Below are positions 3,001 to 34,931 of a stretch of 42,715 bases of DNA, piece after piece (position 1 is the stretch's first letter; each line of letters opens with the position of its first letter). The DNA lies in the NCBI RefSeq assembly GCF_051657365.1, contig NZ_JBOFKN010000029.1, positions 1 through 42,715 of the forward strand, in the 5' to 3' direction. A program made the translations under genes and the position numbers. Under the pieces are notes generated by a model that saw nothing but the letters and a program-made list of their open reading frames with translations, made no database searches and was not told where the DNA came from. This stretch comes from Paraclostridium sp. GTDB taxonomy: Bacteria; Bacillota; Clostridia; Peptostreptococcales; Peptostreptococcaceae.

Positions 3001-4510
3001 TGAATTTATAAGTAACGTTAAGTATAAAGAGGAATTAGTTGGTAACATTACTGCTAAATCTTTAAAGGATAATTTTTTAGAGGCTATGAAACATTTAGAA
3101 GATATACCAATTATCATGAACAATGTTGGATATGATTTTGATGTTAATAGCTCTAATGAAAATGATAACTCTTATGAAGCTGAAGTAAGAGGGACTAGAA
3201 ATGCTAGTGAGTTGCCTTTTAAAATATATCCATTGATTAAAAATGGAATACCCATAATGCCAGATTCGACTATTTTTGGAAGTGCATCAACTCCATTTTA
3301 CTGGATAACAAATATAATGTTATCTTTTAGATATAAGTTTGTAGATTCTATTCTAAAAGAAGAAGCTAGAAATTTTATATTAGAAAATGTAAAGGATGCT
3401 TTTTCAGATAAGTTTAATTTATCAGATTATAAAGGAATTGAAAGGATTATAAAATTATTTAGTGCATTTGATAATCCAAATTTTATGAACGAAATAATGA
3501 GAGAAGATTATGAAGAACTACTATCAAAAGGAATTGAAGATAATACCTTGATTAAGTATGATGGTGATTTAGCAGCAAAACTTTGCTATGGTTTTCTTAA
3601 CTGTGCAAAGTTAAATAAGCTTGAAACTGAAAGAATAAAAAGAATAGCTAAAATAATGTTTCACTTCGAAATTGTTAATTTAGTTGAGTTAGATGGCAGA
3701 GATATTTTAGACCCTAAATCTAAATCTGATTTTAGTTTTGATATTGTTAATGATTTAAAAGAACAATTGGAATATTTTTCCAAGTTATATAATAAGCCTA
3801 TAAAGGAATGGACTATAATTTGTAAAGATAGATTGATAGATGGTGAACCTTATAAAATTGATGAAAATAACTGGTATGATGATATAGGAGCTGTTATAGT
3901 AAATCTTCCTGAAAAATTAGCTTTGAAAGCATTTACAAATAAAGGAACAATTAAATATAGTGCTTCTGTAGGTGTTGAAGGTAAAGAAAAAACTTCTGTT
4001 AGAAGAGGTTTGAGATACACACATAATTTAATAGATTCAAAAGGTAATTATAACTATGGAAAATCTAGTTCTGATATATGTGTTATTCATAATTATTATG
4101 GAGGAACTATTGATAGTTACGAACTTAGAAAGAGAATGTTAGATGATTTAATAAATAAATTTTTTGATAATACTAATAGAGAAAAAATTATATTTGGAGA
4201 TTTCAACTTACATTTAAGAACAGGACTTAATATATATACTGAAGCTAATAACAAAAATGAAAACTATGATATACCAAACTATACTCCACTTATTTATAAA
4301 GGATATACAACTGCTGGTAAAAAATTATATGACAATATTGTTGTTGATAATCTATCAATTGGAGGATTGAGTACAGTATTTAGATATTTTAACTCATCAT
4401 CTGAAGAGTATTTTAAGACTGGAAGTGAATTGTTTGTATCGGATCACTTTCCAATATTCTTAGTTATTAATGATAACTATAAAAAAGATGTATTTAAAGG
4501 AGTAATATAA
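2..4510 (+). CDS. Giant virion-type structural protein, 5' partial. The reading frame is open from position 2 and the first in-window ATG is at 95. C-terminal endonuclease/exonuclease/phosphatase (EEP, DNase I/sphingomyelinase-like) domain at about nt 3780-4507.
   Basis: Long uninterrupted ORF with no in-frame stop back to nt 2. C-terminal motifs IIFGDFN and SDHFPI match the EEP superfamily signatures GDxN and SDHxP. Coding strand and composition match the downstream genes, and the ORF abuts gene 2 (4510/4511). Confidence 0.85.
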   Translation, partial: LIDKSINLVFRKTREIITSEEFKHKAITFYGMNLFNGDILADHYSTISKSVEGSISKILERYDKVYDKNSETVDSNYSRIITSIFKLCVMGNSNINNTNKNNFGTDGLHSTINASFTNEFNIELQSFLISYCISSLYIPNLAFEKADLGLVLRESAHSLIGPISISAIALQEELNRLLLQKVITSENEISIDKEKIMKIEDIKRNINELFGEGYFDKLLNFSSAFKRVNGQNKDFQSIYGIKIFSDYETPLDFFDNIIKSTTVSKKTSESINRILEKTNIKQDDYGKYGKDILEDKSVKEIIDNLDENQKSIYNETINAKIPGNSNPAYFMSKMLIGQTKMYRSFKEITRIISSDYRNMMPDFEVLLIDESKVEQALYESSYRNISDYFDISNIYHISIKKDDTTNIKNAIIKIANTRPYYVDANSYFKEIGFMNDDISDTVLYNKKFVTNRPEIREGMVINISLDKNNDYYDFTGRINSVDINSGEVTISCVSFASELFNNITDVNNYKKSGKLGKISFNSFVSEVSSKFDNAKEIAASKTYRDPNSNLIPKDEIAVNLNDKREFNVAGTNAILYTALGDVLSSVNHLNCSYNQLIFNEKTLSKTEKYLRNFNFRDVIKNFISGKEIAKNTPNRIAENITNTDRDICFYGISVKDVDFYENSNPYGTISTNKKTVFNTSSFIIGDEMENIGSDIFAYQRKNASLYDILNDITLRSPGTFWEVYESGNFATLFFGRNNYQLKRKNKTSSLNIEEINSIFKYLLDTIEINGEHGPESYYVFYNTLRSAAKIYDNTIDSEDEYIQKLEKFTENISILEYDDISNKVYAIAGFNLISCNIQVNKTCPNVIKFEYDSTLSRKIKEWFKFTDGKSIELKLFENIPESEKRVKYVDYKQIPCVHTPKQAYEVAQSIMHNELRNYYSGKIVMLYNSNIRKNTEVTIMDTRNKIFGTVVVKDYQHILDSEMGLVTIITPGMKTRSTSLMSDIYLCGIWQKINYALLRDEFISNVKYKEELVGNITAKSLKDNFLEAMKHLEDIPIIMNNVGYDFDVNSSNENDNSYEAEVRGTRNASELPFKIYPLIKNGIPIMPDSTIFGSASTPFYWITNIMLSFRYKFVDSILKEEARNFILENVKDAFSDKFNLSDYKGIERIIKLFSAFDNPNFMNEIMREDYEELLSKGIEDNTLIKYDGDLAAKLCYGFLNCAKLNKLETERIKRIAKIMFHFEIVNLVELDGRDILDPKSKSDFSFDIVNDLKEQLEYFSKLYNKPIKEWTIICKDRLIDGEPYKIDENNWYDDIGAVIVNLPEKLALKAFTNKGTIKYSASVGVEGKEKTSVRRGLRYTHNLIDSKGNYNYGKSSSDICVIHNYYGGTIDSYELRKRMLDDLINKFFDNTNREKIIFGDFNLHLRTGLNIYTEANNKNENYDIPNYTPLIYKGYTTAGKKLYDNIVVDNLSIGGLSTVFRYFNSSSEEYFKTGSELFVSDHFPIFLVINDNYKKDVFKGVI

Positions 4511-6826: not shown

Positions 6827-8454
6827 TGTCTACTATAACTGCTAATAAAGGATTATATAAAATAAATAAAAATTTTAATTCTGAAATAAAAAAAATATTT
6901 GGAGAATATTTTAAAAGTAGATTGTACGAAAAGCTTGAATTAAAAAGGATAAAAGAAAATGTATTTTTTAAAGAAATTAATACAGATTTGTTATATGTTT
7001 CTGATGAAACTATTATTGATAGCTTAATAAAAGCTGGATATGATGAGACTGATTATCAAAACTATACATCTACAGTGCATAATTCTATTGAATTTATAAA
7101 AGATTTAGAGGAATCAAAATTTGTAAGTTATGACAATAGTATTGTTTTAAATGGAAGAAAAGTTATTGTAAATAAAAATAAAAATAAGATTTCATTGATT
7201 TATGAAGATAGATACGAATTATTATTGTTTGGAGAATATGAGGCTAAGGTTATAAATAATTTTGTAATAAATTCAGAAGGATTTATTTATATGGTAATAA
7301 CTGATAATAATTCTGATAAATATTTTATAAGATCACATTTAAGTTTAGAGTTTTTTAGGTATAACTCTTCTCATAACTGTATGACTAAATTGGAAGAAAT
7401 AGAGTGTTTATTTAAAGAGAAAATAAATGAAAATATTAAAGAGATAATTTTTGATGATGATAATGGAGTAAACTTTATTTCTGATAATTTAAGTATAAAA
7501 AGGATTGAATTTGGAAGAAAATATTTTTTTAGAAAAGATGAAAATGTATTCTTTAATAAAAATAATTTTGTTCCAAATGTAGAACTACAAATAATCCAAG
7601 TTGAACACTTGCATTTGTATGACTGGATATCTTTCCTTGGATTAAATAACTTTGTTAATGATAAAGGGTTAAAGTTAAATAGTGAATTTATTGAAAAATT
7701 TAAAAATATAATAAGATTCAAATTTGACGATACGTTAAATGGTGCATTAAACTATTATGATTTTTATGATGAAAAAGATTATAAGGTAGATTTCTTTCAA
7801 GATGGCATAGAGGTTGTTGGTAACTTCAAATATGGATACTTTGAAAAGGGAGATTACACGCTAAATATAAAGGTAATAAATAAAAAATATAATGGAGAGT
7901 TTGAAGTTATATTAGACCTTATAAGAGATAATAAAAATCTAAAGAGGTTGGTATGTACAACAGTAGATAGAGTTATTTATTTTTCTAATTTAAAATTTAA
8001 TTTTGTTTCATTTGATTATTTAGATAATATTGTAACTTTGAAAATAAATATTAAAGATGATTATTCTGTAAAAAGCACTAGGAGCTATGTTGGAATTAAT
8101 TCTGAAATTAAAATAACTGATTTTGATAGGCTTATAAAATTAGATCAAGTTTTAAGGAACGAGAATATAAACAAAAAACAGCTAATAGATGTTGAGTTCA
8201 TAGATAATTTTCTAATAATAAAAAATTATGCTAAAAATAGTTCTGAGAGAATGTTTGAGTCAGATTTTAAAATTAGATTAATTGAAGATGATGGAACTCC
8301 TACTGTTCTTTGGAAACAGATAAAAGATAAGGATTATTTTATAAACTTTAATAACTATTGTGTTAAGAAAGTAATAAAACCAACTAGAAAAATAAAGCCT
8401 TTATTAAAAAGTAGTTCAATTAATTTTAAATTGGATTTAAAAAAAGGAGAGTAA
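6826..8454 (+). CDS. Hypothetical virion structural protein (542 aa)
   Basis: ATG overlapping the upstream stop by 1 nt. Ends 3 nt before the GTG start of the 2,800-aa gene. Confidence 0.8.
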   Translation: MSTITANKGLYKINKNFNSEIKKIFGEYFKSRLYEKLELKRIKENVFFKEINTDLLYVSDETIIDSLIKAGYDETDYQNYTSTVHNSIEFIKDLEESKFVSYDNSIVLNGRKVIVNKNKNKISLIYEDRYELLLFGEYEAKVINNFVINSEGFIYMVITDNNSDKYFIRSHLSLEFFRYNSSHNCMTKLEEIECLFKEKINENIKEIIFDDDNGVNFISDNLSIKRIEFGRKYFFRKDENVFFNKNNFVPNVELQIIQVEHLHLYDWISFLGLNNFVNDKGLKLNSEFIEKFKNIIRFKFDDTLNGALNYYDFYDEKDYKVDFFQDGIEVVGNFKYGYFEKGDYTLNIKVINKKYNGEFEVILDLIRDNKNLKRLVCTTVDRVIYFSNLKFNFVSFDYLDNIVTLKINIKDDYSVKSTRSYVGINSEIKITDFDRLIKLDQVLRNENINKKQLIDVEFIDNFLIIKNYAKNSSERMFESDFKIRLIEDDGTPTVLWKQIKDKDYFINFNNYCVKKVIKPTRKIKPLLKSSSINFKLDLKKGE

Positions 8455-8457
8455 AAA

Positions 8458-11400
8458 GTGAAACAAGATGAAAAAAACGTTTTAGACAGCTGTGCTATAG
8501 TTGGGTATGATAGTGGAAATATTCTATTTAAACAAGAAAATGGAATTTACTTTAGAGAGCCTATTCGTACAACTATAAGCAATGGTAGGAAAGTAAACAA
8601 TATACTTAAATGGATTTTAAACAACAAAGAAACTAATTATAGTTTGGTTGCTGATGTAAGCAATTATTTAGAGGATTTTGATTCCACATATGAAAATAGG
8701 ACGTTTTTTACAAGAGAGCATTTTTCTTTAACAGGAGGAGATGATTCGATAAGTGTAAATGGTAATTATATGGGTGGAACATCAGGAGTTAAGTATAATG
8801 TAAAGACTATAAACTGGTTTAAGTTGGAAATAAAAGACGTTGTTGGTTCAAGTGGAGACGTAACTATAATTGTCGAGTGTTGTGTTGATAATGTAAATTG
8901 GATTGAATTTGGTTCTGTAAGATTTAATGCTATGCAAGGTATAGATTTAGGAGGAAGTGGAGCGGATAAGACTCATACTTTTAACAATACTATTGAGTGT
9001 CCTAACAGGAACTTTAAGTATAGATTTAGATTTACTGGTAATGGTCATATAAGTTGTAAAGAAGGTGATCCTTGGTGGTTTAGTTCTGGAGGTGTATTTG
9101 TATTAGATGAAAAGTACATTCCGAATGAAGATATAGAATATAATGTTGGAGTAAAATCTATAACAGATTCACATATAGAGTTCACAAGAACGCTAGCTCA
9201 TAAAAATGGATTTTACGGAGAAACTAGCATTTCTAAAAGAAATCAAAAACAACATATAAAACTTTATTTAGTTTATTCTGGTAATACTAAATATGTTTTA
9301 CTTGATGAAGTTTATACAGATACATTTGTGGATAACTTGTATTTTGGACAAATAGAGGAAAGTAAGTTTTTATTAACAAAAAAGAGTGATTTAGAGATAC
9401 CGAAGTTTTCTTTAAACTCCAAAATAAAGCAATTGCTTTATACAAAGAATGATATTTATATAAATAAAAATATATTATCTAGGGGTACAAAATTATCTGA
9501 TTTTGGATTTAAAATATCTAGCAATTCATCTTTATTTGATAGTTCTTGTAATAAATTAACTGAAGATATAAACAATTCTAAATTGAAGCTTAATGTTAAG
9601 AAAGATATTAGATTTGATAATTTTATTAGTGGCATAGAAAATGAAATTGATGTAGATTTTTTAGATAATAACAATAATCTCATATTTGCATCTAAAGTAT
9701 TTTTGGACTCAACAAATAAAATTAGTGATGGAATTATAGTAGATAAAATAAAGAAAAGTAAAACTAGATATAAGGGTAGTTTAATTATATATGATTCGTA
9801 TAATGAAGAATTATTAAACTTAGTCGATTCTTTATCATCTTGTTCTAAGACTCCTCAAACAGTTTTTCTATTCTGTACTAGCAGCAATAATTCTAATGAG
9901 TTAGATTGTGTTATAGATAAAAATACAATAGGCTTCTCAGCGTTTAAAGACAATGTTATTGATAAAGTAAAAAAACAAAATGGATTTTTATTTCAAAATA
10001 TTAATTTAGCTATTGATAAAGTTGGTGAAATTGTATCTAGAAAATTATCTGAAGACACTATGAATACAGTAAATAACTTAGTAGGATTCAATGTATATAA
10101 CTTTACAAATTTGAGTACAAGTGATTATATGAATGACTATGGATATTATACAAATGAATTTAAAAATGGGTTTAATGTTAATAATCCTCAAATAACATTT
10201 ATAGGTCAATCTACTAATAATTCATTAGATGGAATAACTCAATTTGATATTTCAAAACCTTTTGAATTTGAAGCTAACTTAAATAAAATAGAAACTAATT
10301 TAACTTCTGATATGTTAAACGAAAAGAGGTTATTTCCAGGAGTCGATAAGCCGTACTATAGCGTTTCCATAGTACATAATGAGAATGTTTTATATTCTTA
10401 TATAGTCGGTAGAGATAATGTAGAGATGATTGATAACGATAACAAAAATAAAAAATATTCTATCTTTGTTGAAAACAAAAAGGTTAAGGTTAAATATAAT
10501 GAAAATTTAACTGAAAAAGATAGAGGAAAGAATAATGTGTTTATAGTTATTAAGAAAAATGATTGTATTATAAATTCTTATAAAGCTGAATTTTTAGTTG
10601 ATTATGCAGAGCCTATTGTAGATAGATTTGAACTTAATGTTTCAGATATAGTAGAAGAAACTAATTATCAAGGTAAAAATGAATTGGTTTATTCTAAAGA
10701 TAATTTCTTTAAAGTTAGCATGAACCTAAGTGCTAATTATGAATTTAGAAAAGGAGAATATCAATTAGAACTTAGATATTCAAAAAATAAAAATTATAAA
10801 ATAATAAGGCCACTTGAGGGATATTATCAATCTAAAATATATAATATTCATTTGGACGAGTTATCAAACGAATCAGCTCCAGATGAGAAAATAAAATTTG
10901 GTGATTGGGAATGTATGCTTGTTAGAAATAGATATAGTTATTCTATAAAAAATTCAACTCATAATATTCCTTTGGAAATAGATAATGCTTTAAGTATAAA
11001 TGCAGTTCCTATGGAACCAGACTTTGATGATTTTCAAAACAATGGTTTACAACAAGGTAAAGATGTATATATAACGTTGAAATTAATAAATTCTGATTAT
11101 TATAAAAAAATAAAAGATATTATAACTTTTGTTAAAGAAGTTAGATTTTTATCAAATAATGTTGATTTTACATCTAAACAAGGATATTTCACTTATTTAG
11201 ATGAAAATAAGCTAGGTTCTGATAATTCTTTATCATTTATAACAGCACACCAAAATTCGTTAACTCTAGATAATAGGAACGAAATGAGATGGTTTATAAG
11301 TGGTACTTCTGAAAATGAATCAAATAGATTTCTTAATAGCATAGCTAACTTAGATTCTGGATCTAAGAAACCTAAAAATATAAAAATAAATTTAGTTTTA

Positions 11401-14400
11401 TTTACAGGTGAAATAATAGAAACACAAACTGTAACTATAGGACACGCAGGAAAAGTTGCTGCTCCAATTTTATTAGGAACTTCAGAGCATTTAGATAAGC
11501 TTAAAATGTTAGAAGCTAAAAAGAATGGAGTAACAGTAGATCAATTGACTCAAGAACAGTTGATAGCTATTGATGAGTTATGGAAACAGTTGGGTACATA
11601 TAACTACAATAACCAACATATAATAAATGGAGTTAAAACATTTGCTTTTTATTCTAATTTAATGGAAATGAAATTTGATTTTGGAATAGCTGAGTATTAT
11701 ACAATATCGCAAGCCAACAATAATACAGAGATGTTGCCAGTTACAAAAGATGGAGTTGTTAGATATATAATAAACCAAGATGGAATAGATGAAAACGGAA
11801 AAGGTATTTTAACAATAAAAGGATATGTTAAGTTAGCAGATGGTACTATAAACTCTTCTAATGAAGTTGTAATAACTTTTTATAGAAAAAGATTTCCTTC
11901 AATGGTTACTACAGGTGATGATTATACAAAATATGTATTTTATGAAAAAGATTCAAGTGACTATTACGCATTGAAAACTGTTATACAATCAGAGTTGAGA
12001 TTAGAAAATCTTAATGGAACTTATGACTCATCAAGAATAGATCATATAAAAGTTGAACTTGTAGATGTTGATAAAAGAACTGTTATTGCTGAGGGACCAA
12101 TAGTTAAATTTTATGATGGGTTTGTTCCTCAAAGATTTATATTCGATACGGGTTTAACTGATGATGATTTAAATAAACTAAATCCTGAAGAGAGATTCCC
12201 AATAGAGAATACAAAGGAATATATAGAACTTGAAAAAATATTAAATGATAAAATATTTAAAGATGGAAGACACCTAGGGCAAATATTTTATTTGAGATTT
12301 AAAGCAGTAGAATCTATCAAAGATGCTTATGATGTCGTTAAAGATATAAATGGTAAGGAGAGCTTTTATCCAATAATTTTTACTGAGAAATTAGAAGAAT
12401 TAAAGATAATCCCTTCAAATGGAATAATAGTTATAGATAATGATAATAATCAAGATTTATATACTTATAAAAATAAAGTTGCTTTTATGTTAGAAAGTAA
12501 CAATGCTGAATACTTTATGTATAGAACTGATAGAGCTGCAAGTTTTCAAAAAGTTTATCCTAAGAGTGTAGGATACTCGAAGCTACTAAAAATAGTTGTA
12601 TCAACTTATGATGTAGGAAATCACTTCCTAGAAGTAAAACAGAAGGCTGAAGGTGAACCAGAATCTAATGTTTATTCAGTTATTGTTGAAAAAATAAAGC
12701 CGACATCACCACCTAAAATATCAGGTGATGATTTAATAGATGAAAATGCAAAATGGTTATTACATCCAGTAGATAATGCTCTAAAGATAAAAACTAGCAT
12801 AATAACAGGAGATTCTGAACATTCTCAAGTTGTTTCTAGTGCAATGCCTTATGAAGTTTACATTCAACCAGATAAGAATCTAGATATAGGTTATCACGCA
12901 GTTAAAGCGATAGCAGTTGATAAAATAAACAATGAAAGTGAACCAACATATTTTTTAACAAAAAAGATAGGACGTCCAATAGCGTCAAATGTTATAGGAA
13001 CTGAAAAAACTTCAGATAATGTAATATCTTGGGAATGGGAATCTCAACATTTTGATGGTGTTAAAGAATATTTAGTTGAAATAAATGGAATTGAAAAAAC
13101 TATAGTTCCAGTAAATAGGTATGGAACAACTGAATATTATATGAGATTTTTCCAAGGTAAAGAGTTAAGTGATGGAACATACGAAATAAGAGTATGGGCT
13201 GTAAATGAACTTGGTAACAAAAATTACATGAGTTCAGATTTTATAACTAAAAAAGGAAGCAAAATAAAAGAATTATCTGTTGAAATGTATAAATTTAAAG
13301 ATAATTATACCAATAGACTAGAAGCTAAGATAGTTACCGAAGATAAAGCTATAAAAGAGTTTGAATATGATATTCTTAGAAATGATAACGGTAAAATAAC
13401 TTCTGTAACAGGAACTATGAAGACTAATCAAAAGATTTTACCTTTTATAATGGAAAATGGAGAGAAAGTTATTTTAGATGATGGTACATACTATTTAGCT
13501 GTTAGAGCTATAAACTATATAGATGAAAAAACTGACTATGTTAGAATACCATTCATATTCAAGAAAACTCCTCCAGATAAACCATACATATATTTTCAAA
13601 GGTTGTTAAAAAGAACAATACCACTTGTATTTGTTAAACCTTCTACTGAGATACCTATTCTAGCAATAGAAATAAAAATAGGAGATAAACCTTTTGAAAA
13701 AGTTAGAAATAACGTATGGAGACCTAATTACAATTTACCTTTAGGAATAAATAATATCCTTATTAAAGTTACTGATTATGCAGGAAATCAATCTGAATTT
13801 TCAGACTTTATAGAGATAACAAATAAAGGTGTTAATATGTTCCAGGAAGATTTTGTAGTTGATATGAGTAATCCAGTATTAACATTTGATTTTAATTTAC
13901 CTGAAATGATAGTTTATGGCCATACTAATTTTTTAGTAGAAAATGAACAACTTGGTGTTTCAGTTGTAGTTGATGTTAGCAATGCAAATAATATAGAGAT
14001 ACCTCTAACTTATTCTAACGATAAGATTCTGCCACCAGATGGTGTATATCCATTTGTTATAAAGTTATATGATTCAGATTCTAAAGAATATTCTTATATA
14101 GGTGATGTGTTTTATGTAACTATAGATAGCTACGAACCTATAAAACCTTATTTTTTGAATAGTGGGTATTCAAATATAGAATATAATAAGTTTTATACAC
14201 AGAATAGGAATCCTAAATGGTTATGGCAAACTAGACAAAATATAGATGAATTAAAAGAATTTATTGTTAATTTATATGAGTTTTCTAACAATGAGAATAC
14301 TTATGTAGATTATGGTACTGGACAGTTTAAGGATTATTCAACTAAGTTGATAGGACAATTTCAAGTTCCAGGAGATTTAGCAGATGGATCTTATAAACTT

Positions 14401-16860
14401 ACTGCAAAAGTTATTGGAAAGAACGGTCTTGAAAGTGCTAATGAAGAGTTTACATTTGTTGTTAAAAATAGTTTTCCTGCACCACCACGTTTCGATTTAA
14501 ACAATCCAATAAATAGAAAATATGAAAATAGAAATAAAAATGTTATGTGGAAGTGGGAAGATACTAATAGTAATTGGGACGAATTCGTCTCTTATAAAGT
14601 CAAAATAAATGATGAGGAATTTACTGAAGAATTTTCAGCATCAAAAACATATTATGAAGAAAAAAGAATTTTAAAAGATGGACCTAATAAAATAATGGTT
14701 ATAGGAAAGGATAAGGCAGGTAACTGGTCAACGGCAAATGAAACTACTGCTGGAATGCTTGGAGCTAATTATTTATCTAATACAAAGATGATAGATACAT
14801 CAAATCCAATACCTCTAACAGATAAAGATATAAAGGTACTTATAAAAGATTCTTCTACTTTTGAAATTTTCTTTGAAAGAAAAAAAGCAGATAATGAATA
14901 TTATATGTTCGAATTAATATCTCCGAATTCAGATGGAAATGATATAAAGTTTGTAGTTGGAAATACATTAGATAAAACATTTACTGAAGAAATATATTTT
15001 AGAGAAGAAAAGGTTATTCCAGGGTTAGAAATTGGAGAATTAAATGGAAAGCTAGGTTATTGTGAAATAAAAGATAACTCAGATACAGAAGATGATAAGA
15101 GTTTATACTTTACAAACCTATTACCTAATACATATACATTTGTTGTTAGCACTATAGATTATGCAGGAAATAGTTCTCAAATTTATACGAAAGTAATTGA
15201 ATTGAAAGATTTAACTAGAATAAAACCAGTATTTGTATATCCAAAAGAAACGTACACAAATAATAATACAATAATATTCCAATGGATATTAACTGCTGAT
15301 AATATAAAAAATTGGGAATATCAATTAACAACTCCATATAATTCGAGTGTTGCTGATTTAGTTAATCCTAGTAAATGGAGAAGTTTAAATGAGAATAGCT
15401 TCAAGTTGAATAATATACCTAAAGTTGTAGCAGGTAATGATGCAGATGGAGAATATACATTCTATGTTAGAGCTGTATTTGATGAAACAGTAGATGAGGC
15501 TGGTACAGGTCAAATAGTAAATAAAAAATCTGATATCTCGTCAATAACTGTCGTTCTTGATAGAAAAATACCAGGAGGAATAATTTTTACAAATAAACAA
15601 TTCACTACTGATAATTCTGTATTGAGATGGACTTGGGACTACACTTCATCTGGAGATATAGCTAGTGGAACATATGTTACATTTAATCCGAATTTACCAA
15701 TTACAGAATGGGAAAAAATAGAAAATAAAAAAGAGTATGAATCGTATCAAGAAAGAGAAGATGGTGTTTACACTTTATATGCTAAGACTTTTGATTTAGC
15801 TGGGAATATAAATAACACTATATACGAAAGTACAATAGTGTTGGATAGAATACCGCCGTTTAAACCTATTATAAATGGTGGAAGCAATATATTTACAAAT
15901 ATAATTCCAACAATTTCTTGGGAAAATGATTTAAATTATTTTAGATATGCTTGGCTAGTTATGACGATTGAAGAGTTCAATGCTTTTAAATCTGTTTATG
16001 ATAGACTTGTTAATAATGAAAACTATACATTAACTAATCATGATTGGAAATTTATTTTTTCTAAATCAGATATTGATAAAAATAATGTAAATGAAAGTAT
16101 AATTGAATTAGAAAGTCTATTTAGGAAAAATGAGTTTTTAATTGAAAATACAGTAACCATAAATAAGACTATATCTAAAAATGGAATATCAGAGGAAGGA
16201 AGCTATGTATTTATTCTAAGCGGATTTGATCCAAGTAATAACTGGTCAGAAGAGTTTGAATACCAATTTATAACTTACGACATAACTGCTCCTGATGTTA
16301 CTCTAATGAGATTTATAGAGCCTACATATGTAATAACTGATGAAAGACGTCCTAGATGGGTATGGGAAGTTCCTTATGATGTAACTAGATGTGAATATGT
16401 ATTAGAAAAAAATGGATATTCGGATGGTAGTATTGTAGGAAGTATAACCAAAGCAGCAGATGATGGAATATCTAATATTACTTATGAATTTAGACCTCAG
16501 TTCAATTTAACTTCTGGTAATTACAGATTGGTTGTCAATTGTTATGATTCTTCTAATAACTACGTTCAGATTAATAAATCAATTACATTAGAGACTGATA
16601 GTTCTTCACTTGAAAAAGAATTCCAAGATATTATTTTACCTGGACAAAATAATAGAATAAGAATTCAGAAAAATAAATACTCAGATACATATATTATAGT
16701 TGATATAGATATAGATAAAAATTCAACATTAAGCTATAGACTTATAGATAAAAATTCAAATAACAAAGAGTTTTTAATTTATGAAATAGGTAAAACTGAG
16801 CTTCAGATGAACTTAGAATATGAATTTAATATATTAACGTATAATATAGAAATTAATTAA
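8458..16860 (+). CDS. Giant structural protein (2,800 aa). Cys/Trp-containing N-terminal beta-rich region, with a C-terminal half of about 12 tandem fibronectin-type-III-like repeats. Probable tail/baseplate host-interaction protein.
   Basis: 8.4-kb uninterrupted ORF with GTG start at 8458 and AAGGAGAG RBS at 8441-8448. Repeated W..W ... Y.(I/L)(R/A)V.A.D.AGN.S patterns such as YEIRVWAVNELGN, VTDYAGNQSEF, TIDYAGNSSQIY and FDLAGNINNT. Confidence 0.85.
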   Translation: MKQDEKNVLDSCAIVGYDSGNILFKQENGIYFREPIRTTISNGRKVNNILKWILNNKETNYSLVADVSNYLEDFDSTYENRTFFTREHFSLTGGDDSISVNGNYMGGTSGVKYNVKTINWFKLEIKDVVGSSGDVTIIVECCVDNVNWIEFGSVRFNAMQGIDLGGSGADKTHTFNNTIECPNRNFKYRFRFTGNGHISCKEGDPWWFSSGGVFVLDEKYIPNEDIEYNVGVKSITDSHIEFTRTLAHKNGFYGETSISKRNQKQHIKLYLVYSGNTKYVLLDEVYTDTFVDNLYFGQIEESKFLLTKKSDLEIPKFSLNSKIKQLLYTKNDIYINKNILSRGTKLSDFGFKISSNSSLFDSSCNKLTEDINNSKLKLNVKKDIRFDNFISGIENEIDVDFLDNNNNLIFASKVFLDSTNKISDGIIVDKIKKSKTRYKGSLIIYDSYNEELLNLVDSLSSCSKTPQTVFLFCTSSNNSNELDCVIDKNTIGFSAFKDNVIDKVKKQNGFLFQNINLAIDKVGEIVSRKLSEDTMNTVNNLVGFNVYNFTNLSTSDYMNDYGYYTNEFKNGFNVNNPQITFIGQSTNNSLDGITQFDISKPFEFEANLNKIETNLTSDMLNEKRLFPGVDKPYYSVSIVHNENVLYSYIVGRDNVEMIDNDNKNKKYSIFVENKKVKVKYNENLTEKDRGKNNVFIVIKKNDCIINSYKAEFLVDYAEPIVDRFELNVSDIVEETNYQGKNELVYSKDNFFKVSMNLSANYEFRKGEYQLELRYSKNKNYKIIRPLEGYYQSKIYNIHLDELSNESAPDEKIKFGDWECMLVRNRYSYSIKNSTHNIPLEIDNALSINAVPMEPDFDDFQNNGLQQGKDVYITLKLINSDYYKKIKDIITFVKEVRFLSNNVDFTSKQGYFTYLDENKLGSDNSLSFITAHQNSLTLDNRNEMRWFISGTSENESNRFLNSIANLDSGSKKPKNIKINLVLFTGEIIETQTVTIGHAGKVAAPILLGTSEHLDKLKMLEAKKNGVTVDQLTQEQLIAIDELWKQLGTYNYNNQHIINGVKTFAFYSNLMEMKFDFGIAEYYTISQANNNTEMLPVTKDGVVRYIINQDGIDENGKGILTIKGYVKLADGTINSSNEVVITFYRKRFPSMVTTGDDYTKYVFYEKDSSDYYALKTVIQSELRLENLNGTYDSSRIDHIKVELVDVDKRTVIAEGPIVKFYDGFVPQRFIFDTGLTDDDLNKLNPEERFPIENTKEYIELEKILNDKIFKDGRHLGQIFYLRFKAVESIKDAYDVVKDINGKESFYPIIFTEKLEELKIIPSNGIIVIDNDNNQDLYTYKNKVAFMLESNNAEYFMYRTDRAASFQKVYPKSVGYSKLLKIVVSTYDVGNHFLEVKQKAEGEPESNVYSVIVEKIKPTSPPKISGDDLIDENAKWLLHPVDNALKIKTSIITGDSEHSQVVSSAMPYEVYIQPDKNLDIGYHAVKAIAVDKINNESEPTYFLTKKIGRPIASNVIGTEKTSDNVISWEWESQHFDGVKEYLVEINGIEKTIVPVNRYGTTEYYMRFFQGKELSDGTYEIRVWAVNELGNKNYMSSDFITKKGSKIKELSVEMYKFKDNYTNRLEAKIVTEDKAIKEFEYDILRNDNGKITSVTGTMKTNQKILPFIMENGEKVILDDGTYYLAVRAINYIDEKTDYVRIPFIFKKTPPDKPYIYFQRLLKRTIPLVFVKPSTEIPILAIEIKIGDKPFEKVRNNVWRPNYNLPLGINNILIKVTDYAGNQSEFSDFIEITNKGVNMFQEDFVVDMSNPVLTFDFNLPEMIVYGHTNFLVENEQLGVSVVVDVSNANNIEIPLTYSNDKILPPDGVYPFVIKLYDSDSKEYSYIGDVFYVTIDSYEPIKPYFLNSGYSNIEYNKFYTQNRNPKWLWQTRQNIDELKEFIVNLYEFSNNENTYVDYGTGQFKDYSTKLIGQFQVPGDLADGSYKLTAKVIGKNGLESANEEFTFVVKNSFPAPPRFDLNNPINRKYENRNKNVMWKWEDTNSNWDEFVSYKVKINDEEFTEEFSASKTYYEEKRILKDGPNKIMVIGKDKAGNWSTANETTAGMLGANYLSNTKMIDTSNPIPLTDKDIKVLIKDSSTFEIFFERKKADNEYYMFELISPNSDGNDIKFVVGNTLDKTFTEEIYFREEKVIPGLEIGELNGKLGYCEIKDNSDTEDDKSLYFTNLLPNTYTFVVSTIDYAGNSSQIYTKVIELKDLTRIKPVFVYPKETYTNNNTIIFQWILTADNIKNWEYQLTTPYNSSVADLVNPSKWRSLNENSFKLNNIPKVVAGNDADGEYTFYVRAVFDETVDEAGTGQIVNKKSDISSITVVLDRKIPGGIIFTNKQFTTDNSVLRWTWDYTSSGDIASGTYVTFNPNLPITEWEKIENKKEYESYQEREDGVYTLYAKTFDLAGNINNTIYESTIVLDRIPPFKPIINGGSNIFTNIIPTISWENDLNYFRYAWLVMTIEEFNAFKSVYDRLVNNENYTLTNHDWKFIFSKSDIDKNNVNESIIELESLFRKNEFLIENTVTINKTISKNGISEEGSYVFILSGFDPSNNWSEEFEYQFITYDITAPDVTLMRFIEPTYVITDERRPRWVWEVPYDVTRCEYVLEKNGYSDGSIVGSITKAADDGISNITYEFRPQFNLTSGNYRLVVNCYDSSNNYVQINKSITLETDSSSLEKEFQDIILPGQNNRIRIQKNKYSDTYIIVDIDIDKNSTLSYRLIDKNSNNKEFLIYEIGKTELQMNLEYEFNILTYNIEIN
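12690..16580 (+). repeat. Array of about 12 tandem FN3-like domain repeats (about 90-130 aa each) inside the 2,800-aa gene
   Basis: Periodic recurrence of the FN3 hallmark residues: Trp in strand B, Tyr in strand C, and a Y.xVxAxDxAGNxS F/G-strand motif. Repeats are diverged at the nucleotide level. Confidence 0.6.
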
Positions 16861-18719: not shown

Positions 18720-19423
18720 CTTTTAAAAACATAATTGATGAAATTGAAAATAACAATTCAATTTATAATGATGAGATAAAAAAAATAGATAAAGTTCAAA
18801 AACAAATTGCTGATGTTGGGATGTTTAGATTTTCTGAATTGGAAGCACAGAATAAAGCAATAGAGAAAATGTTCAATGAGTTTAATATGGATGTAAATTC
18901 AAACTCTTATATTTTTAAAAATTCTGATAATGATCCAAAAGTTAAAACATTAGAATTTCTCTCTCCTATACAAATTAAAAATGCTATTTTATTTGTTAAG
19001 GATTTTATATTTAATTCACCAGTAAGATTTAAAACAATTTTCCATACTATAGATAATAGTTTTATAGAACTTCATATGTTGCCATATGATTTTAGAGCTG
19101 ATTATATAGAAGAGATAAAATTTATGAATTATCAAGATAAATCTCTATTCAAAGCTATGAATAATGAAAAATTTGAGTATTATGATATTGTAAATGGAGA
19201 TGTTGGGATTCTTTATAAAAAGGTAGATACAGATTACACTGATTTTGTTGACCAAGAAGGGTATATAAACTTCAAGACTAATCACAGAAAGGATAAAGTT
19301 TTGTGTAGATACACTCCTATAAGCAATGAGTTTATAAAGACAATAGATAATAAAATCACTTCAGTAACATTGATTCTTGATAAACAAATAGATAATGAAA
19401 TTAAATTGAATATTTCTATTTAA
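18707..19423 (+). CDS. Hypothetical protein (238 aa)
   Basis: ATG overlapping the upstream gene by 13 nt, with an AGGTG RBS. Followed by a terminator. Confidence 0.75.
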   Translation: MGKITFKNIIDEIENNNSIYNDEIKKIDKVQKQIADVGMFRFSELEAQNKAIEKMFNEFNMDVNSNSYIFKNSDNDPKVKTLEFLSPIQIKNAILFVKDFIFNSPVRFKTIFHTIDNSFIELHMLPYDFRADYIEEIKFMNYQDKSLFKAMNNEKFEYYDIVNGDVGILYKKVDTDYTDFVDQEGYINFKTNHRKDKVLCRYTPISNEFIKTIDNKITSVTLILDKQIDNEIKLNISI

Positions 19424-19449
19424 AAGAGCTTTTAATAAGCTCTTTTTTT
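19423..19449 (+). terminator. Rho-independent terminator AAAGAGCTT-TTAAT-AAGCTCTTTTTTT
   Basis: Perfect 8-bp inverted repeat plus T-run immediately after the stop at 19423. Confidence 0.65.
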
Positions 19450-19494
19450 ACTTTCTTTTACAGTTACATTAAAATTAACTTTAGAGGTGGTTTT

Positions 19495-20892
19495 GTGAAA
19501 GTTGGAAAGATAATATATTTCATAGATTCTATAAAACTTCTTTTCGATAGAAACGATATATTAAATAAAGAAATACTTGAAAAATTGAATAGTTACAAAA
19601 GGGAATTAAACAATTTTCATAATATTTCAAGCAAGGTTTATGATGAAAATAAAACTAATATAAATGATTTTAAAACTATATTTAATTCTATATATAATAG
19701 TGAGTTTAAATCAATAAAAGAAACCTTTGAAAATAATAGTCGTATTTTTTATAACAACGGTTTTAAGTTAGATGTTGAGAAGCAAATGCTTATGTTTGAA
19801 GCAAAAGAAAATATTGAGGTTAACTATGAGTATTATAGACAAAATAAAAATTCAATTATATTTTTCTTTAAAGATCCAGTAGATGTTAATTTGATGAAAT
19901 TAATATCTAAAGATGAAAATGGTTTTAATATAGAGCCAAAAGAAATAATAGTTGAAAACTCTTTAGGTAAAACATATTTTCTTGAAGACTTCAGCAGATT
20001 CTTTGCAACAAACATTGAACTAGATGTTCAAACTTATATAAGTAATCTAAAGACTGTAACAAGTGTAGAATTTGTATTTGATTCTATACCTAGTTCCCAT
20101 TTGTCTACGTATAAGTTTTTCAAAGTGGTTTATAAAGATGAAAATGAAGTTATATTGAATTTTAAGAAGATTTTTAATGACAATAAAATAGTAAAACTAA
20201 AAAGAAACATTTCTGATAAATCAAAAGTTCTTAGGTATTCTATAAGTTTTGATAATGGTGTTTCTTTTAATGAATTTGATTGGAAAAATTCAGAATTAAA
20301 TGGATTAGATGTAGAAGATGATATAAAAATAATTTCTATTCCAGAAGAAAGCAATTCTGATTTGTTCATAAAAATTATAGCTGCTAAAGATTCTAAGAGT
20401 GTTAATAATCAAAAGGTTGTTGGAACTAAAAAATATAATAGTACGATAATGTCTAGTGATTATGTAGAAGATAATATGTACGAATATATATTAGATAATC
20501 ATGGCGGAGTTATAGATAAGAATTCTATTAAAGTTTATTTATCAAATAAATTTGGAACTATTATATCTAGTTATAATAATAATATCGTTGATACATTTTC
20601 TGAACCTGGAAAAGTTAGTATATCTTCTGGATTTATAAATACTGAAAAAGAGTCTATAAGTGATGATGATATATTTTTTCTTTGTGATTTTGATGATCTA
20701 AATTCTTTAAAAGCTATAAAAAATGAGATTGGTTTTTTTAGAAATGATTCTTTATATTTACCTAGTCTTTTTGCTAATGAAGAAATAAATTTTAGAGTTT
20801 TATATGATGTTAATTTCTATGAGAATGATACAAGTATAACTTCATACACGCCTTTTATATTTGATTTTGATATTATGGCTGGTGATAGTTAA
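19495..20892 (+). CDS. Hypothetical virion structural protein (465 aa), GTG start
   Basis: GTG at 19495 with AGAGGTGG RBS 15-22 nt upstream. Long ORF coupled to the next gene by TAATG. Confidence 0.75.
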   Translation: MKVGKIIYFIDSIKLLFDRNDILNKEILEKLNSYKRELNNFHNISSKVYDENKTNINDFKTIFNSIYNSEFKSIKETFENNSRIFYNNGFKLDVEKQMLMFEAKENIEVNYEYYRQNKNSIIFFFKDPVDVNLMKLISKDENGFNIEPKEIIVENSLGKTYFLEDFSRFFATNIELDVQTYISNLKTVTSVEFVFDSIPSSHLSTYKFFKVVYKDENEVILNFKKIFNDNKIVKLKRNISDKSKVLRYSISFDNGVSFNEFDWKNSELNGLDVEDDIKIISIPEESNSDLFIKIIAAKDSKSVNNQKVVGTKKYNSTIMSSDYVEDNMYEYILDNHGGVIDKNSIKVYLSNKFGTIISSYNNNIVDTFSEPGKVSISSGFINTEKESISDDDIFFLCDFDDLNSLKAIKNEIGFFRNDSLYLPSLFANEEINFRVLYDVNFYENDTSITSYTPFIFDFDIMAGDS

Positions 20893-21953
20893 TGAAATTT
20901 GAAAAATATATAAGAGTTAAGAATGAACAAAAGGATTTTCTTGTTGGTACATCAAGTTCAAATATTATTATTAAAAATATTGTTGAAAAAATATTTAAAA
21001 TAGAAAATGGAAATATAATTATTGGCAATGATGCTATTGAATTGGAAAGATTGTATCTAAATAAAGTTAATCTTGATGAAAATATTATTTGTAGTGTGGA
21101 AAAAGAGATTAGTTTATTACATAAAAAAATCCAGTTAATGGTTAAGAATAAGGAAGAACAATTAGAATTTATAGACAACAAAATTAAAGAGATTAAAGAA
21201 GCAATAGACTATGCAATAGGACTAAGAAATAAATCTGTATATGACGTTATAGGAGTTATTAATAATAGTTTTTCAAACATAATAACAAAGAATATTATAT
21301 TTTCTGATAATTTAAATACATTTAATGGGAAATATTCATTTTTAAGTGGAGAGAGAACTATATTAGAAAATAATAGTTATGAAATAATAGAGCATTCAGC
21401 AAATTATAAGTTGGAGATAAAACTAAAAAATAGAAACTTCATAAATTATATTATGTTTAACGATTCTTTAAAAACAATAGATACGTTTAAAGTTCAATTT
21501 CTTGATTCTAATACAACAGTTAAAGAGATAAAAGAGGTAGATATAAATATATCCCCACTTATTACAGCAAATATTAGTTGTAACAGAGTTGTTATTGAAG
21601 GTGTTGGAGCTAGAGAAATAGTATCTAATTTTAAAATATGTGTTGGTAAGAATAACTATAATTATAATAGAGCAATATCGGTATATGAATGTGATTTCTC
21701 TAATAATAAGTTATCAGAAAATTTCTTATTTAAATGTAATGATGATATAAAGATTTTCTTGTATCCTAAAAAAGAATTTATTTTAGATGAATCTTTAACA
21801 TATCAAGAATTTAAAGAAAAATATTATCTAATAGAAAACATAGTTAGAACAGATGTATCTAGTGTTGTAAATCTTCAGGATAATTACATAATATGTTTCT
21901 TAGAAACTAATAACGATATTTTACAAGAATTAAAAATTTATGGAGTTGATTAA
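20892..21953 (+). CDS. Hypothetical protein (353 aa)
   Basis: ATG overlapping the upstream stop. Same strand and operon. Confidence 0.75.
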   Translation: MKFEKYIRVKNEQKDFLVGTSSSNIIIKNIVEKIFKIENGNIIIGNDAIELERLYLNKVNLDENIICSVEKEISLLHKKIQLMVKNKEEQLEFIDNKIKEIKEAIDYAIGLRNKSVYDVIGVINNSFSNIITKNIIFSDNLNTFNGKYSFLSGERTILENNSYEIIEHSANYKLEIKLKNRNFINYIMFNDSLKTIDTFKVQFLDSNTTVKEIKEVDINISPLITANISCNRVVIEGVGAREIVSNFKICVGKNNYNYNRAISVYECDFSNNKLSENFLFKCNDDIKIFLYPKKEFILDESLTYQEFKEKYYLIENIVRTDVSSVVNLQDNYIICFLETNNDILQELKIYGVD

Positions 21954-34900: not shown

Positions 34901-34931
34901 AAAAAAGGCACTCAAAAGAATGCCTTTTTTT
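34901..34931. terminator. Bidirectional rho-independent terminator AAAAAAGGCA-loop-TGCCTTTTTTT between convergent genes
   Basis: Hairpin flanked by an A-run on one side and a T-run on the other. Sits between the + gene ending at 34893 and the - gene ending at 34930. Confidence 0.55.

What the first reader, a model, noticed from the sequence alone, without database searches (positions are those of the whole stretch)
8458..16860. 2,800-aa structural protein carrying about 12 tandem FN3-like domains
The C-terminal ~1,300 aa show a periodic W...W / Y.xRVxAxDxAGNxS signature repeated about 12 times. This is a long flexible Ig/FN3-type stalk such as is seen in host-recognition or carbohydrate-binding tail proteins. 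The N-terminal third is Cys/Trp-containing and beta-rich, and may be lectin- or enzyme-like. A single 8.4-kb gene of this architecture is unusual and may define host range.
Basis: partly seen in the sequence, partly recalled or inferred. Interest (0 to 1): 0.6.

Follow-up and report, generated by a model that had tools for sequence, protein, structure and literature searches.

The report
Giant multi-Ig tail protein of a phage-plasmid
The 8.4-kb gene is real and encodes a 2,800-residue protein made almost entirely of small beta-sandwich (Ig/FN3-like) modules, sitting in the tail-gene block of a 189-kb phage-plasmid of the fish-gut bacterium Cetobacterium somerae. It is an unusually large, sequence-orphan example of a well-known kind of phage adhesin or fibre protein, not a new kind of system.

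Summary
ORF 8458..16860 (+) is intact, has a good Shine-Dalgarno site, and is recovered at exactly 2,800 aa in seven independent records, one of them a closed genome. Residues 1417-2712 hold 12 tandem units, each recognised in a leave-one-out HMM test.

The units are divergent E-set beta-sandwiches. Pfam assigns Big_13 (bacterial Ig-like), not fn3. A profile of the units also finds titin FN3 arrays and SiiE BIg domains. So "FN3-like" holds at fold level only.

The units are old and individualised: 9-26% identical to the reference unit, with no DNA-level repeats. Their number and unit-specific insertions are the same in a homologue that is 48% identical.

The N-terminal 1,150 aa is also mostly beta-sandwich beads plus one alpha/beta domain. 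No enzyme fold was found. The first beta-sandwich (residues 97-250) is the most variable part at every time scale.

The gene lies between a tape-measure-like gene and the tail-fibre genes of C. somerae "plasmid p3" (NZ_CP143322.1), which carries portal, protease and capsid genes plus ParA and a tubulin-like gene.

Best reading: a tail-tip or baseplate adhesin/fibre protein. Location and binding are inferred, not shown. Verdict: a new member of a known kind, of modest interest.

The parts
8444..8451 (+). Shine-Dalgarno-like AAGGAGAG, ending 6 nt before the GTG start. It runs into the TAA stop (8452-8454) of the upstream 542-aa gene.
   Evidence: Sequence read directly. Same start as RefSeq CDS VSU16_RS14680.
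8458..16860 (+). Giant gene, 2,800 aa (identical to WP_438532729.1 / P0009).
   Evidence: Seven 2,800-aa variants without indels. 18 of 22 nucleotide differences from a sister strain are synonymous.
8458..8745 (+). Residues 1-96: N-terminal head conserved across the small family (AIVG.D.G.ILFK.EN..YF ... LKW). No signal peptide.
   Evidence: Fragments P0005-P0007 match profile positions 1-136 at E 1e-13 to 7e-7. Maximum Kyte-Doolittle 19-residue window over the whole protein is 1.36.
8746..9207 (+). Residues 97-250: first beta-sandwich module, the most variable part of the protein. Candidate ligand-binding module.
   Evidence: AlphaFold pLDDT 72-81. 0.21 variable sites per residue among 7 strain variants against 0.04-0.13 elsewhere. 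21% identity to the 48% homologue in residues 101-200. A roughly 150-aa nested insertion in P0004, with partial evidence in the fragment P0006. Weak match (E 7e-4) to beta-sandwich repeats of the GH43-like protein P0008.
9769..10137 (+). Residues 438-560: alpha/beta domain of unknown type.
   Evidence: AlphaFold pLDDT 70-87 with alternating strands and helices. A 4-sequence profile finds nothing among PDB sequences at E<=10.
10138..11907 (+). Residues 561-1150: further beta-sandwich beads and a conserved helical pair (about 1009-1051).
   Evidence: AlphaFold secondary structure and pLDDT 75-86 for 670-730 and 750-840. Foldseek finds only multi-Ig/FN3 strings. Ig-like end motifs such as FLVDYAEP are visible.
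11908..12705 (+). Residues 1151-1416: the most conserved stretch of the protein, just before the array. Its last roughly 100 aa look like a degenerate unit.
   Evidence: 0.038 variable sites per residue. 55-57% identity to the 48% homologue. The leave-one-out HMM does not recognise 1316-1416.
12706..16593 (+). Residues 1417-2712: array of 12 tandem Big_13/FN3-like beta-sandwich units. Unit starts are at residues 1417, 1506, 1601, 1704, 1790, 1893, 2006, 2115, 2255, 2371, 2466 and 2611. Units 2115-2254 and 2466-2610 carry 40-50-aa insertions.
   Evidence: leave-one-out; Big_13; titin FN3, SiiE BIg; model and Foldseek.
16594..16857 (+). Residues 2713-2800: C-terminal beta-rich end piece, not recognisable as a unit by sequence.
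   Evidence: 53% identical to the homologue.

Best explanation
The gene encodes a non-enzymatic, bead-on-a-string structural protein of the tail tip or baseplate of a large temperate phage. That phage is kept as a 189-kb circular plasmid in Cetobacterium somerae.

The protein consists of roughly 20 or more beta-sandwich modules. Its C-terminal half is an array of 12 individualised Big_13/FN3-like domains. It would be about 45-50 nm long if extended, assuming about 4 nm per domain.

Inferred mechanism:
- It is built into the distal tail and projects from it.
- The hypervariable N-terminal beta-sandwich (residues 97-250), and possibly the neighbouring variable modules up to about residue 800, make weak, reversible contacts with surface polysaccharide of the host. 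Contacts with gut mucus glycans are an alternative.
- The conserved middle (about 850-1416) and the Ig array supply attachment, reach and spacing.

Shown: gene integrity, domain composition, conservation pattern and genomic position. Inferred: virion incorporation, orientation, ligand, and any effect on host range.
For: **Domain content**
- Big_13 above Pfam's cutoff.
- 12 units validated by leave-one-out.
- The unit profile hits titin FN3 arrays (5e-14), SiiE BIg domains (3e-10) and, weakly, the FN3 region of lambda J.
- The model of residues 1-1150 matches only adhesin or Ig strings (MpIBP 5e-7, SiiE 1e-6) and large phage proteins with FN3, Big-1, J-like or minor-tail annotation.

**No export signal**
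- No hydrophobic segment anywhere in the protein.

**Position**
- All genes from 95 to 34893 are on one strand.
- Downstream ORFs hit tail-fibre PHROGs and Peptidase_S74. The 1,178-aa ORF has a pyocin-knob-like segment.
- Upstream lies a K/E/L-rich protein with a C-terminal hydrophobic segment, as in tape-measure proteins.
- The same record has a portal (3.7e-15), plus weaker matches to a head protease (5.3e-05) and a major head protein (1.1e-04), further upstream on the same strand.

**Conservation**
- Purifying selection: 4 of 22 nucleotide differences change an amino acid.
- The variability gradient peaks at residues 97-250.
- Unit number and insertions are the same in the 48% homologue.
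Against: - There is no direct evidence that the protein is in the virion.
- None of the immediate neighbours (185, 115, 389, 542, 617, 238, 465 and 353 aa) matches any known baseplate family. The "baseplate" placement therefore rests on gene order alone.
- Both AlphaFold models are of low to medium confidence (pLDDT 56 and 62). Fold matches are generic and TM-scores low.
- Classic receptor-binding fibres are trimeric, with their variable part at the C-terminus. Here the variable part is N-terminal, and nothing indicates trimerisation.
- The individual, well-conserved units suit a fixed architectural role at least as well as a free flexible stalk.
- The lectin-like hint is a single E 7e-4 match to a domain that Pfam itself does not call a carbohydrate-binding module.
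Confidence: 0.55

Rival explanations
1. A purely architectural tail or baseplate component, comparable in role to T4 gp7 or to a sheath- or tube-decorating network. Each Ig-like unit would sit at a fixed position and contact specific partners, and the protein would have no adhesive or host-range function.
For: - Units are only 9-26% identical to the reference unit (pairwise identities among the other units were not computed), yet 48-69% conserved between orthologues (per 100-residue window).
- Unit number, order and unit-specific insertions are fixed.
- Seven strain variants have no indels.
- There are no DNA repeats that would allow the array to expand or contract.
Against: - The N-terminal 800 aa evolve much faster.
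- A nested domain insertion occurs in some family members. This is the usual mark of an exposed, interacting surface.
- Ig/FN3 domains on phage particles are generally peripheral (general knowledge: Fraser et al. 2006).
Confidence: 0.22
2. A giant head or neck decoration fibre (Hoc- or pb10-like in principle) that sticks virions to mucus or cells from the capsid rather than from the tail.
For: Ig-like arrays are typical of decoration proteins. Nothing ties the protein physically to the tail.
Against: - The gene lies five genes after the tape-measure-like gene and before the fibre genes.
- It is about 57 kb (record coordinates) from the portal, protease and capsid genes.
- Known decoration proteins are 10-20 times smaller.
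Confidence: 0.08
3. A polysaccharide depolymerase or other enzyme whose catalytic domain is hidden in the poorly modelled parts of residues 250-1400, with the Ig array as a carrier.
For: - About 30% of the residue 1-1150 model has pLDDT below 50.
- The alpha/beta domain at 438-560 is unassigned.
- The neighbouring 2,112-aa protein ends in EEP-type nuclease/phosphatase motifs, so enzymes do occur in this block.
Against: - No Pfam, PHROG or PDB sequence hit to any enzyme.
- No beta-helix, propeller or TIM barrel among the Foldseek matches.
- No conserved catalytic-looking motif in the 4-sequence alignment.
Confidence: 0.07
4. Not a virion protein. Either a bacterial-type surface adhesin carried as cargo by the plasmid, or an assembly or annotation artefact that fuses shorter genes.
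For: - Big_13 arrays are typical of secreted bacterial adhesins.
- The record is annotated as a plasmid and the gene as hypothetical.
Against: - No signal peptide or membrane segment.
- The gene is embedded co-directionally, with 3-nt and 5-nt gaps to its neighbours, in a block with fibre genes.
- The same 2,800-aa ORF is found in a closed genome, several MAGs and read-level assemblies. A collinear 2,793-aa homologue exists.
Confidence: 0.03

Closest known systems
Phage structural proteins that display Ig-like/FN3 domains: lambda J, T5 pb3 and pb4 FN3 strings, T4 Hoc, and large 'FN3/Big domain-containing' proteins of cyanophages and vibriophages
   Same: - Beta-sandwich Ig/FN3-type modules on a protein encoded among virion genes, with no export signal.
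- The unit profile weakly matches the FN3 region of lambda J (E 0.17-0.33).
- BFVD fold matches include Synechococcus phage S-CAM8 (FN3 domain protein), Vibrio phage VP4B (Big-1 protein), a J-like protein and minor tail proteins.
   Different: - No detectable sequence homology outside the repeat motif. tblastn against 50,697 phage genomes finds nothing.
- Only one PHROG matches, and only through the repeat.
- It is much larger (2,800 aa) and almost wholly made of such modules.
- No J-type hub domain, no spike and no capsid-binding domain was recognised.
Giant bacterial adhesins built of BIg/Big_13 arrays: Salmonella SiiE, Marinomonas MpIBP, BapA-type proteins
   Same: - Pfam Big_13 membership.
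- The unit profile hits SiiE BIg domains at 3.4e-10.
- Best PDB fold matches for the N-terminal model are MpIBP and SiiE.
- Same extender-plus-terminal-binding-module logic.
   Different: - Adhesin repeats are numerous and nearly identical, and their number varies. Here there are 12 old, individualised units with fixed number.
- No signal peptide or membrane segment. A type I secretion signal was not assessed.
- Ca-binding linker motifs were not examined.
- The gene sits in a phage tail block, not an adhesin operon.
Eukaryotic FN3 arrays (titin A-band FN3 domains)
   Same: Same sequence signature: Trp in an early strand and Y.[FL].V.A.N/D..G.S in the last strands. This gives a summed E of 5e-14.
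   Different: - The best single-domain E is only 0.043.
- Pfam fn3 does not reach significance on the whole protein.
- The resemblance is at superfamily (E-set) level, with no implication of common function.
Clostridium botulinum phage c-st type phage-plasmids (about 186 kb, tubulin-like TubZ partition). Comparison for the host element only, from my own knowledge.
   Same: A circular element of about 189 kb carrying head and tail genes together with ParA and a tubulin-like gene, kept as a plasmid in a low-GC anaerobe.
   Different: No sequence comparison with c-st was made. The giant gene has no match in the phage collection.

Membership tests
Pfam Big_13 (PF19077, bacterial Ig-like domain; E-set) | Whole-protein score above the curated gathering cutoff (27 bits) | tested here: met
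   52.8 bits, E 6.1e-14 for the window protein. 54.0 bits for homologue P0002.
Pfam Big_13 (PF19077, bacterial Ig-like domain; E-set) | Individual repeat units recognised by the model | tested here: inconclusive
   11 of 28 single units match at E<=0.1 (best 7.6e-4). None reaches 27 bits alone, and matches mostly cover the C-terminal half of the model.
Pfam fn3 (PF00041, fibronectin type III) | Significant match to the fn3 model | tested here: not met
   No hit at E<=1 on the whole protein. Only 2 of 28 units at E about 0.01.
FN3 fold (seven-strand beta-sandwich) | A confident 3-D model superposing on solved FN3 domains | tested here: inconclusive
   The unit model has pLDDT 56.5 and 6 strands. 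Top Foldseek hits are FN3 domains (monobody, GH84C FN3, CbhA Fn3, integrin beta4) but at E 0.015-0.1 and TM 0.4-0.5, and SiiE BIg scores similarly. The profile hit to titin FN3 arrays supports the superfamily level.
Phage tail fibre / receptor-binding protein (trimeric fibre type) | Sequence match to known fibre families, or a fibre module such as a C-terminal intramolecular chaperone (Peptidase_S74). The fibre fold itself (triple beta-helix, collagen repeat or coiled coil) was judged only by Foldseek on a low-confidence model of residues 1-1150. | tested here: not met
   No fibre PHROG or Pfam hit in this protein. Such hits occur in ORFs 28469, 29167 and 30291 of the same window. Foldseek shows only Ig-type beads.
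Phage tail fibre / receptor-binding protein (trimeric fibre type) | Presence in the virion and binding to a host receptor | not testable with these tools
   Needs proteomics, microscopy and adsorption assays.
Tape measure protein | Long, mainly alpha-helical protein with hydrophobic segment(s), placed before the hub genes | tested here: not met
   The protein is beta-rich and has no hydrophobic segment. A better candidate lies upstream (L005:194-3583).
Tail-spike depolymerase | Right-handed beta-helix or another glycanase or lyase domain | tested here: not met
   No such Pfam, PHROG or PDB sequence hit and no such fold match. Caveat: about 30% of the model of residues 1-1150 has pLDDT below 50, and residues 1151-1416 were not modelled.
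Secreted bacterial giant adhesin (SiiE/BapA/MpIBP type) | Export signal (N-terminal signal peptide or C-terminal type I signal) and near-identical repeats of variable number | tested here: not met
   No N-terminal signal peptide or hydrophobic segment; a C-terminal type I secretion signal was not assessed. Units are 9-26% identical to the reference unit. No DNA repeats. Identical unit count in all variants and in the 48% homologue.

The most novel reading that the evidence does not exclude
The protein may be a centrally anchored, two-armed tail appendage unlike known fibres. Its most conserved middle (residues about 850-1416) would dock on the baseplate. One arm would end in a fast-evolving, insertion-tolerant N-terminal beta-sandwich that sets the host range of a phage-plasmid. 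The other arm, a rigid and position-specific 12-domain Ig array, would act as a molecular ruler or a mucus anchor in the fish gut. This would be a new architectural solution for host recognition in an uncharacterised lineage of Fusobacteriota phage-plasmids whose tail block encodes at least three proteins over 2,000 aa.
Probability: 0.12. Interest if true: 0.55.

Novelty: new member of a known kind. Interest (0 to 1): 0.3.

Why it matters
Cetobacterium somerae is a dominant, vitamin-B12-producing gut symbiont of freshwater fish and is being developed as an aquaculture probiotic. Almost nothing is known about its phages.

- This gene is the largest recognisable candidate for the surface-contacting part of a phage that rides as a 189-kb plasmid in a cultured strain and recurs in several metagenomes. 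It is therefore a concrete starting point for host-range and adsorption work.
- More generally, it is a clean example of an old, individualised Ig array with fixed unit number. This contrasts with the recently expanded, near-identical arrays of bacterial adhesins.
- It belongs to a family with only a handful of relatives among 1.8 billion representative proteins.
- It does not, on present evidence, change how phage adhesins are thought to work.

Tried and rejected
**Searches that found nothing**
- megablast and tblastn of the gene against 50,697 phage genomes.
- phmmer of the whole protein against PDB sequences.
- Two IMG/VR scans and one GTDB genome scan with back-translated conserved peptides.
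- PHROGs and Pfam on 20 or more neighbouring proteins. Only the distal fibre genes, an SPFH protein and a weak terminase-N match were recognised.
- 2-sequence or 4-sequence profiles of the 465-aa neighbour and of the alpha/beta domain against PDB sequences.
- A blastp self-comparison listed no internal repeat hits. The units are too divergent for pairwise detection.

**Failed, wasted or biased steps**
- The second homologous-protein search, with a 2-sequence alignment, returned nothing, not even the query itself. It was a wasted search.
- The first representatives job failed on profile length.
- The iterated HMM with permissive inclusion also lit up weak \"units\" throughout the N-terminal half. 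I did not rely on it because the procedure is circular, and replaced it with the leave-one-out test.

**Readings rejected**
- Tape measure: the protein is beta-rich.
- Chimeric assembly: multiple independent assemblies agree.
- Stop-codon recoding in the window: long standard-code ORFs, and the three minus-strand ORFs near 36.4-38.1 kb are in different frames.
Full report
**1. The observation**

- The window is 25% G+C. From 95 to 34893 it carries a single-strand block of tightly packed ORFs.
- ORF 8458..16860 (+) translates to 2,800 aa without interruption.
- Its GTG start follows AAGGAGAG and lies 3 nt after the stop of the preceding gene. RefSeq annotates the same start.
A DG.Y...V.A.D.AGN-type motif occurs 9 times and W.W 5 times, all after residue 1400.
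- I set unit boundaries at the Pro-rich linkers and aligned the 14 candidate units of this protein with those of its one distant full-length homologue (alignment A3).
- In a leave-one-out test, each unit was scored by an HMM built without it and without its orthologue. The 12 units between residues 1417 and 2712 scored 11.5-33.3 bits. All 200 shuffles of each unit stayed at or below 13.8 bits.
- The segments 1316-1416 and 2713-2800 were not recognised.
- "About 12 repeats in about 1,300 aa" is therefore correct.
- There is no repeat at DNA level, and a blastp self-comparison listed no internal hits. These are old repeats visible only as a profile.

**2. The gene is real, not a chimera**

- The translation is identical to WP_438532729.1 (P0009). 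Its only contig in the collection is 42,715 bp, the length of this window.
- Six further records carry 2,800-aa variants at 93.1-99.9% identity with no indel.
- One of them is VSU16_RS14680 on NZ_CP143322.1, "Cetobacterium somerae strain ceto plasmid p3". This is a closed 188,661-bp circle from a pure culture isolated from yellow catfish gut. The match is 99.0% at nucleotide level, and the gene is annotated as hypothetical.
- Against the sister contig JBOFTQ010000029.1 there are 22 nucleotide differences, only 4 of which change an amino acid. This indicates purifying selection.
- A homologue from an unrelated sequencing run (P0002, 2,793 aa, 48% identity) is collinear from end to end. It sits among the same neighbours.

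**3. What the repeats are**

- Pfam assigns only Big_13, at 52.8 bits against a cutoff of 27. It gives no fn3 hit at E<=1.
- Scanned singly, 11 of 28 units touch Big_13 (best E 7.6e-4), 2 touch fn3, 3 touch Y_Y_Y and 1 touches HYR.
- A profile of the units searched against all PDB sequences finds titin FN3 arrays (5.2e-14 summed; best single domain 0.043). It also finds the BIg domains of the Salmonella adhesin SiiE (3.4e-10) and, weakly, the FN3 part of lambda J.
- An AlphaFold model of unit 2006-2114, with the 28 units as its alignment, is all-beta with six strands but only pLDDT 56.5.
- Its best Foldseek matches are FN3 domains and SiiE, at E 0.015-0.1.
- The units are thus E-set beta-sandwiches: formally Big_13, FN3-like in signature and probably in fold.

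**4. How the array evolves**

- Units are only 9-26% identical to the reference unit of the alignment (pairwise identities among the other units were not computed).
- Between the two lineages, however, residues 1400-2800 are 48-69% conserved per 100-residue window.
- The number of units, their order, and the 40-50-aa insertions in units 2115-2254 and 2466-2610 are the same in both lineages.
- This is the opposite of the recently amplified arrays of bacterial adhesins. It argues that each unit has its own role or position.

**5. The rest of the protein**

- A profile of residues 1-1150 was searched with full HMMER sensitivity against 1.84 billion representative proteins. It found only seven proteins:
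  - P0001 itself;
  - two large fragments, P0003 and P0004;
  - three N-terminal fragments, P0005 to P0007;
  - a weak hit (E 6.9e-4) of positions 94-167 to the three-fold repeated beta-sandwich of a GH43-like protein, P0008. Pfam does not call that repeat a carbohydrate-binding module.
- The AlphaFold model of residues 1-1150 used a 7-sequence alignment and reached pLDDT 61.9. It has confident beta-sandwich blocks at about 100-250, 670-730 and 750-840, and an alpha/beta domain at about 438-560.
- Foldseek against the PDB and against BFVD returns only strings of Ig/FN3/MG-type domains. These include MpIBP, SiiE, NCAM, complement C3, and large phage proteins annotated FN3, Big-1, J-like or minor tail.
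- No enzyme fold appeared, and no signal peptide or membrane segment is present.

**6. Variability along the protein**

- Variable sites per residue among the seven strain variants are as follows.

| Residues | Region | Variable sites per residue |
|---|---|---|
| 1-96 | N-terminal head | 0.083 |
| 97-250 | first beta-sandwich | 0.208 |
| 251-850 | variable modules | 0.12-0.13 |
| 851-1150 | central | 0.067 |
| 1151-1416 | pre-array | 0.038 |
| 1417-2712 | 12-unit array | 0.085 |
| 2713-2800 | C-terminal end | 0.057 |

- Identity to P0002 is 21-39% in residues 1-800 and 48-69% afterwards.
- P0004 carries a nested insertion of about 150 aa inside the first beta-sandwich; the 299-aa fragment P0006 shows part of it.

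**7. Context**

- Downstream ORFs 28469, 29167 and 30291 match tail-fibre PHROGs. ORF 30291 ends in a Peptidase_S74 chaperone domain.
- The 1,178-aa ORF 21940 has a pyocin-knob-like segment.
- Upstream lie the 542-, 389-, 115- and 185-aa genes, then a 2,112-aa protein.
- Before that is a K/E/L-rich protein of at least 1,129 aa ending in a hydrophobic stretch. By eye it resembles a tape measure.
- In plasmid p3 the same strand continues upstream to a portal (PHROG E 3.7e-15), with weaker matches to a head protease (5.3e-05) and a major head protein (1.1e-04).
- The record also carries ParA, a tubulin-like gene, a sigma factor, a type I restriction-modification system and a 1,174-aa amidase.
- The element is therefore a tailed phage kept as a plasmid.
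- The strain's genome paper lists a "Plasmid 3: 188,661 bp" and never uses the word phage (PMC12255148).
- The immediate neighbours of the giant gene match nothing known. Its placement "in the baseplate or tail-tip block" rests on gene order.

**8. Interpretation**

- The best-supported reading (confidence about 0.55) is a tail-tip or baseplate structural protein built of beta-sandwich beads. Its fast-evolving N-terminal module or modules contact the host surface. Its conserved middle and 12-unit Ig array provide attachment and reach.
- The main rival (about 0.22) is a purely architectural role. The individuality and conservation of the units support that rival.
- A capsid decoration fibre, a hidden enzyme, a non-virion adhesin and an artefact are each unlikely, for the reasons given under the rival explanations.
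It is right about the gene, the repeat count, the beta-rich N-terminus and the general class. It is imprecise on family (Big_13 rather than fn3). It is unsupported on an enzyme-like N-terminus and untested on host range.

**9. Novelty and score**

- Ig/FN3-bearing phage structural proteins are a well-known kind. This is general knowledge from Fraser et al. 2006 and from structural work on lambda J, T5 pb3/pb4 and T4 Hoc.
- This protein is a very large, sequence-orphan member of that kind, already deposited as "hypothetical protein".
- I rate it a new member of a known kind, interest 0.3.
- The surrounding element is arguably more noteworthy than the gene. It is an unrecognised 189-kb phage-plasmid of a fish-gut probiotic species, with several proteins above 2,000 aa in its tail block.

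Noticed in passing
whole window; NZ_CP143322.1 (L008, L009): The window is a near-identical strain (99.0% identity over the giant gene) of 'Cetobacterium somerae strain ceto plasmid p3', a closed 188,661-bp circle. That record carries a portal gene (PHROG E 3.7e-15), weaker matches to a head protease (5.3e-05) and a major head protein (1.1e-04), and tail-fibre genes. It also has ParA, a tubulin-like gene, a sigma-70 factor, a type I R-M system, MazG and a 1,174-aa amidase. It is therefore a phage-plasmid (similar in kind to C. botulinum phage c-st, from my own knowledge). The genome paper (PMC12255148) calls it Plasmid 3 and never mentions phage.
   Followed up: partly
window 95-4510 (C-terminal 1,471 aa of a 2,112-aa protein; full length at L005:3662-10000): The giant protein just upstream ends with GDFNLHL ... 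SDHFPIFLVI. These are the hallmark motifs of the endonuclease/exonuclease/phosphatase (DNase I-like) superfamily. Pfam gives no hit at E<=0.1, so this rests on motifs read by eye. It could be a virion-borne nuclease, phosphatase or lipase domain.
   Followed up: partly
L005:194-3583, L006:1-3583, L008:1-9635 (upstream of the window): A tape-measure-like, K/E/L-rich protein with a C-terminal hydrophobic segment is called as one 3,129-aa product in one MAG contig (L006). In plasmid p3 it is split into 2,094-aa and 1,148-aa CDSs by a GIY-YIG nuclease gene. In the JBOFTQ contig (L005) stops precede the 1,129-aa part, and the sequence diverges from L006 exactly there. This is probably a homing-endonuclease insertion polymorphism inside a structural gene.
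   Followed up: partly
window 19423-19495 versus L008:31041-32540: Plasmid p3 has a 'LA2681 family HEPN domain-containing protein' gene inserted between the 238-aa and 465-aa tail genes. The window has only a 71-nt spacer there. A defence-type or toxin-type gene is thus present or absent inside the tail block.
   Followed up: no
window 30291-32480 (+) and 21940-25476 (+): The 729-aa protein is a tail fibre with a C-terminal Peptidase_S74 intramolecular chaperone and a shufflon-like segment. The 1,178-aa protein has a pyocin-knob-like segment (residues 595-705, 44% identical to a 'pyocin knob' of Dulem virus 41). In p3 the stretch corresponding to the 729-aa gene is annotated only as a 140-aa 'tail fiber domain-containing protein', with an unannotated gap before it. 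The fibre may differ or be a pseudogene there.
   Followed up: no
window 36871-37692 (-): A 273-aa ORF with a Walker-A-like SRRSGKS motif weakly matches the N-terminal ATPase half of T4-type large terminase (Pfam E 5.9e-4). It is flanked by 144-aa and 135-aa ORFs in other frames. No nuclease half was recognised nearby, so the terminase may be split or highly divergent.
   Followed up: partly
window 34930-36450 (-): A 505-aa SPFH/Band-7 domain protein (Pfam 8.9e-20) begins the oppositely oriented block right after the tail-fibre genes.
   Followed up: no
L003 (ENA ERZ27251018 contig k141_180309): In a more distant relative, the block 182-117-386-526-giant is preceded by a divergently oriented MerR-family regulator instead of the 2,112-aa gene. 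The five-gene unit ending in the giant gene can therefore sit in a different upstream context.
   Followed up: no
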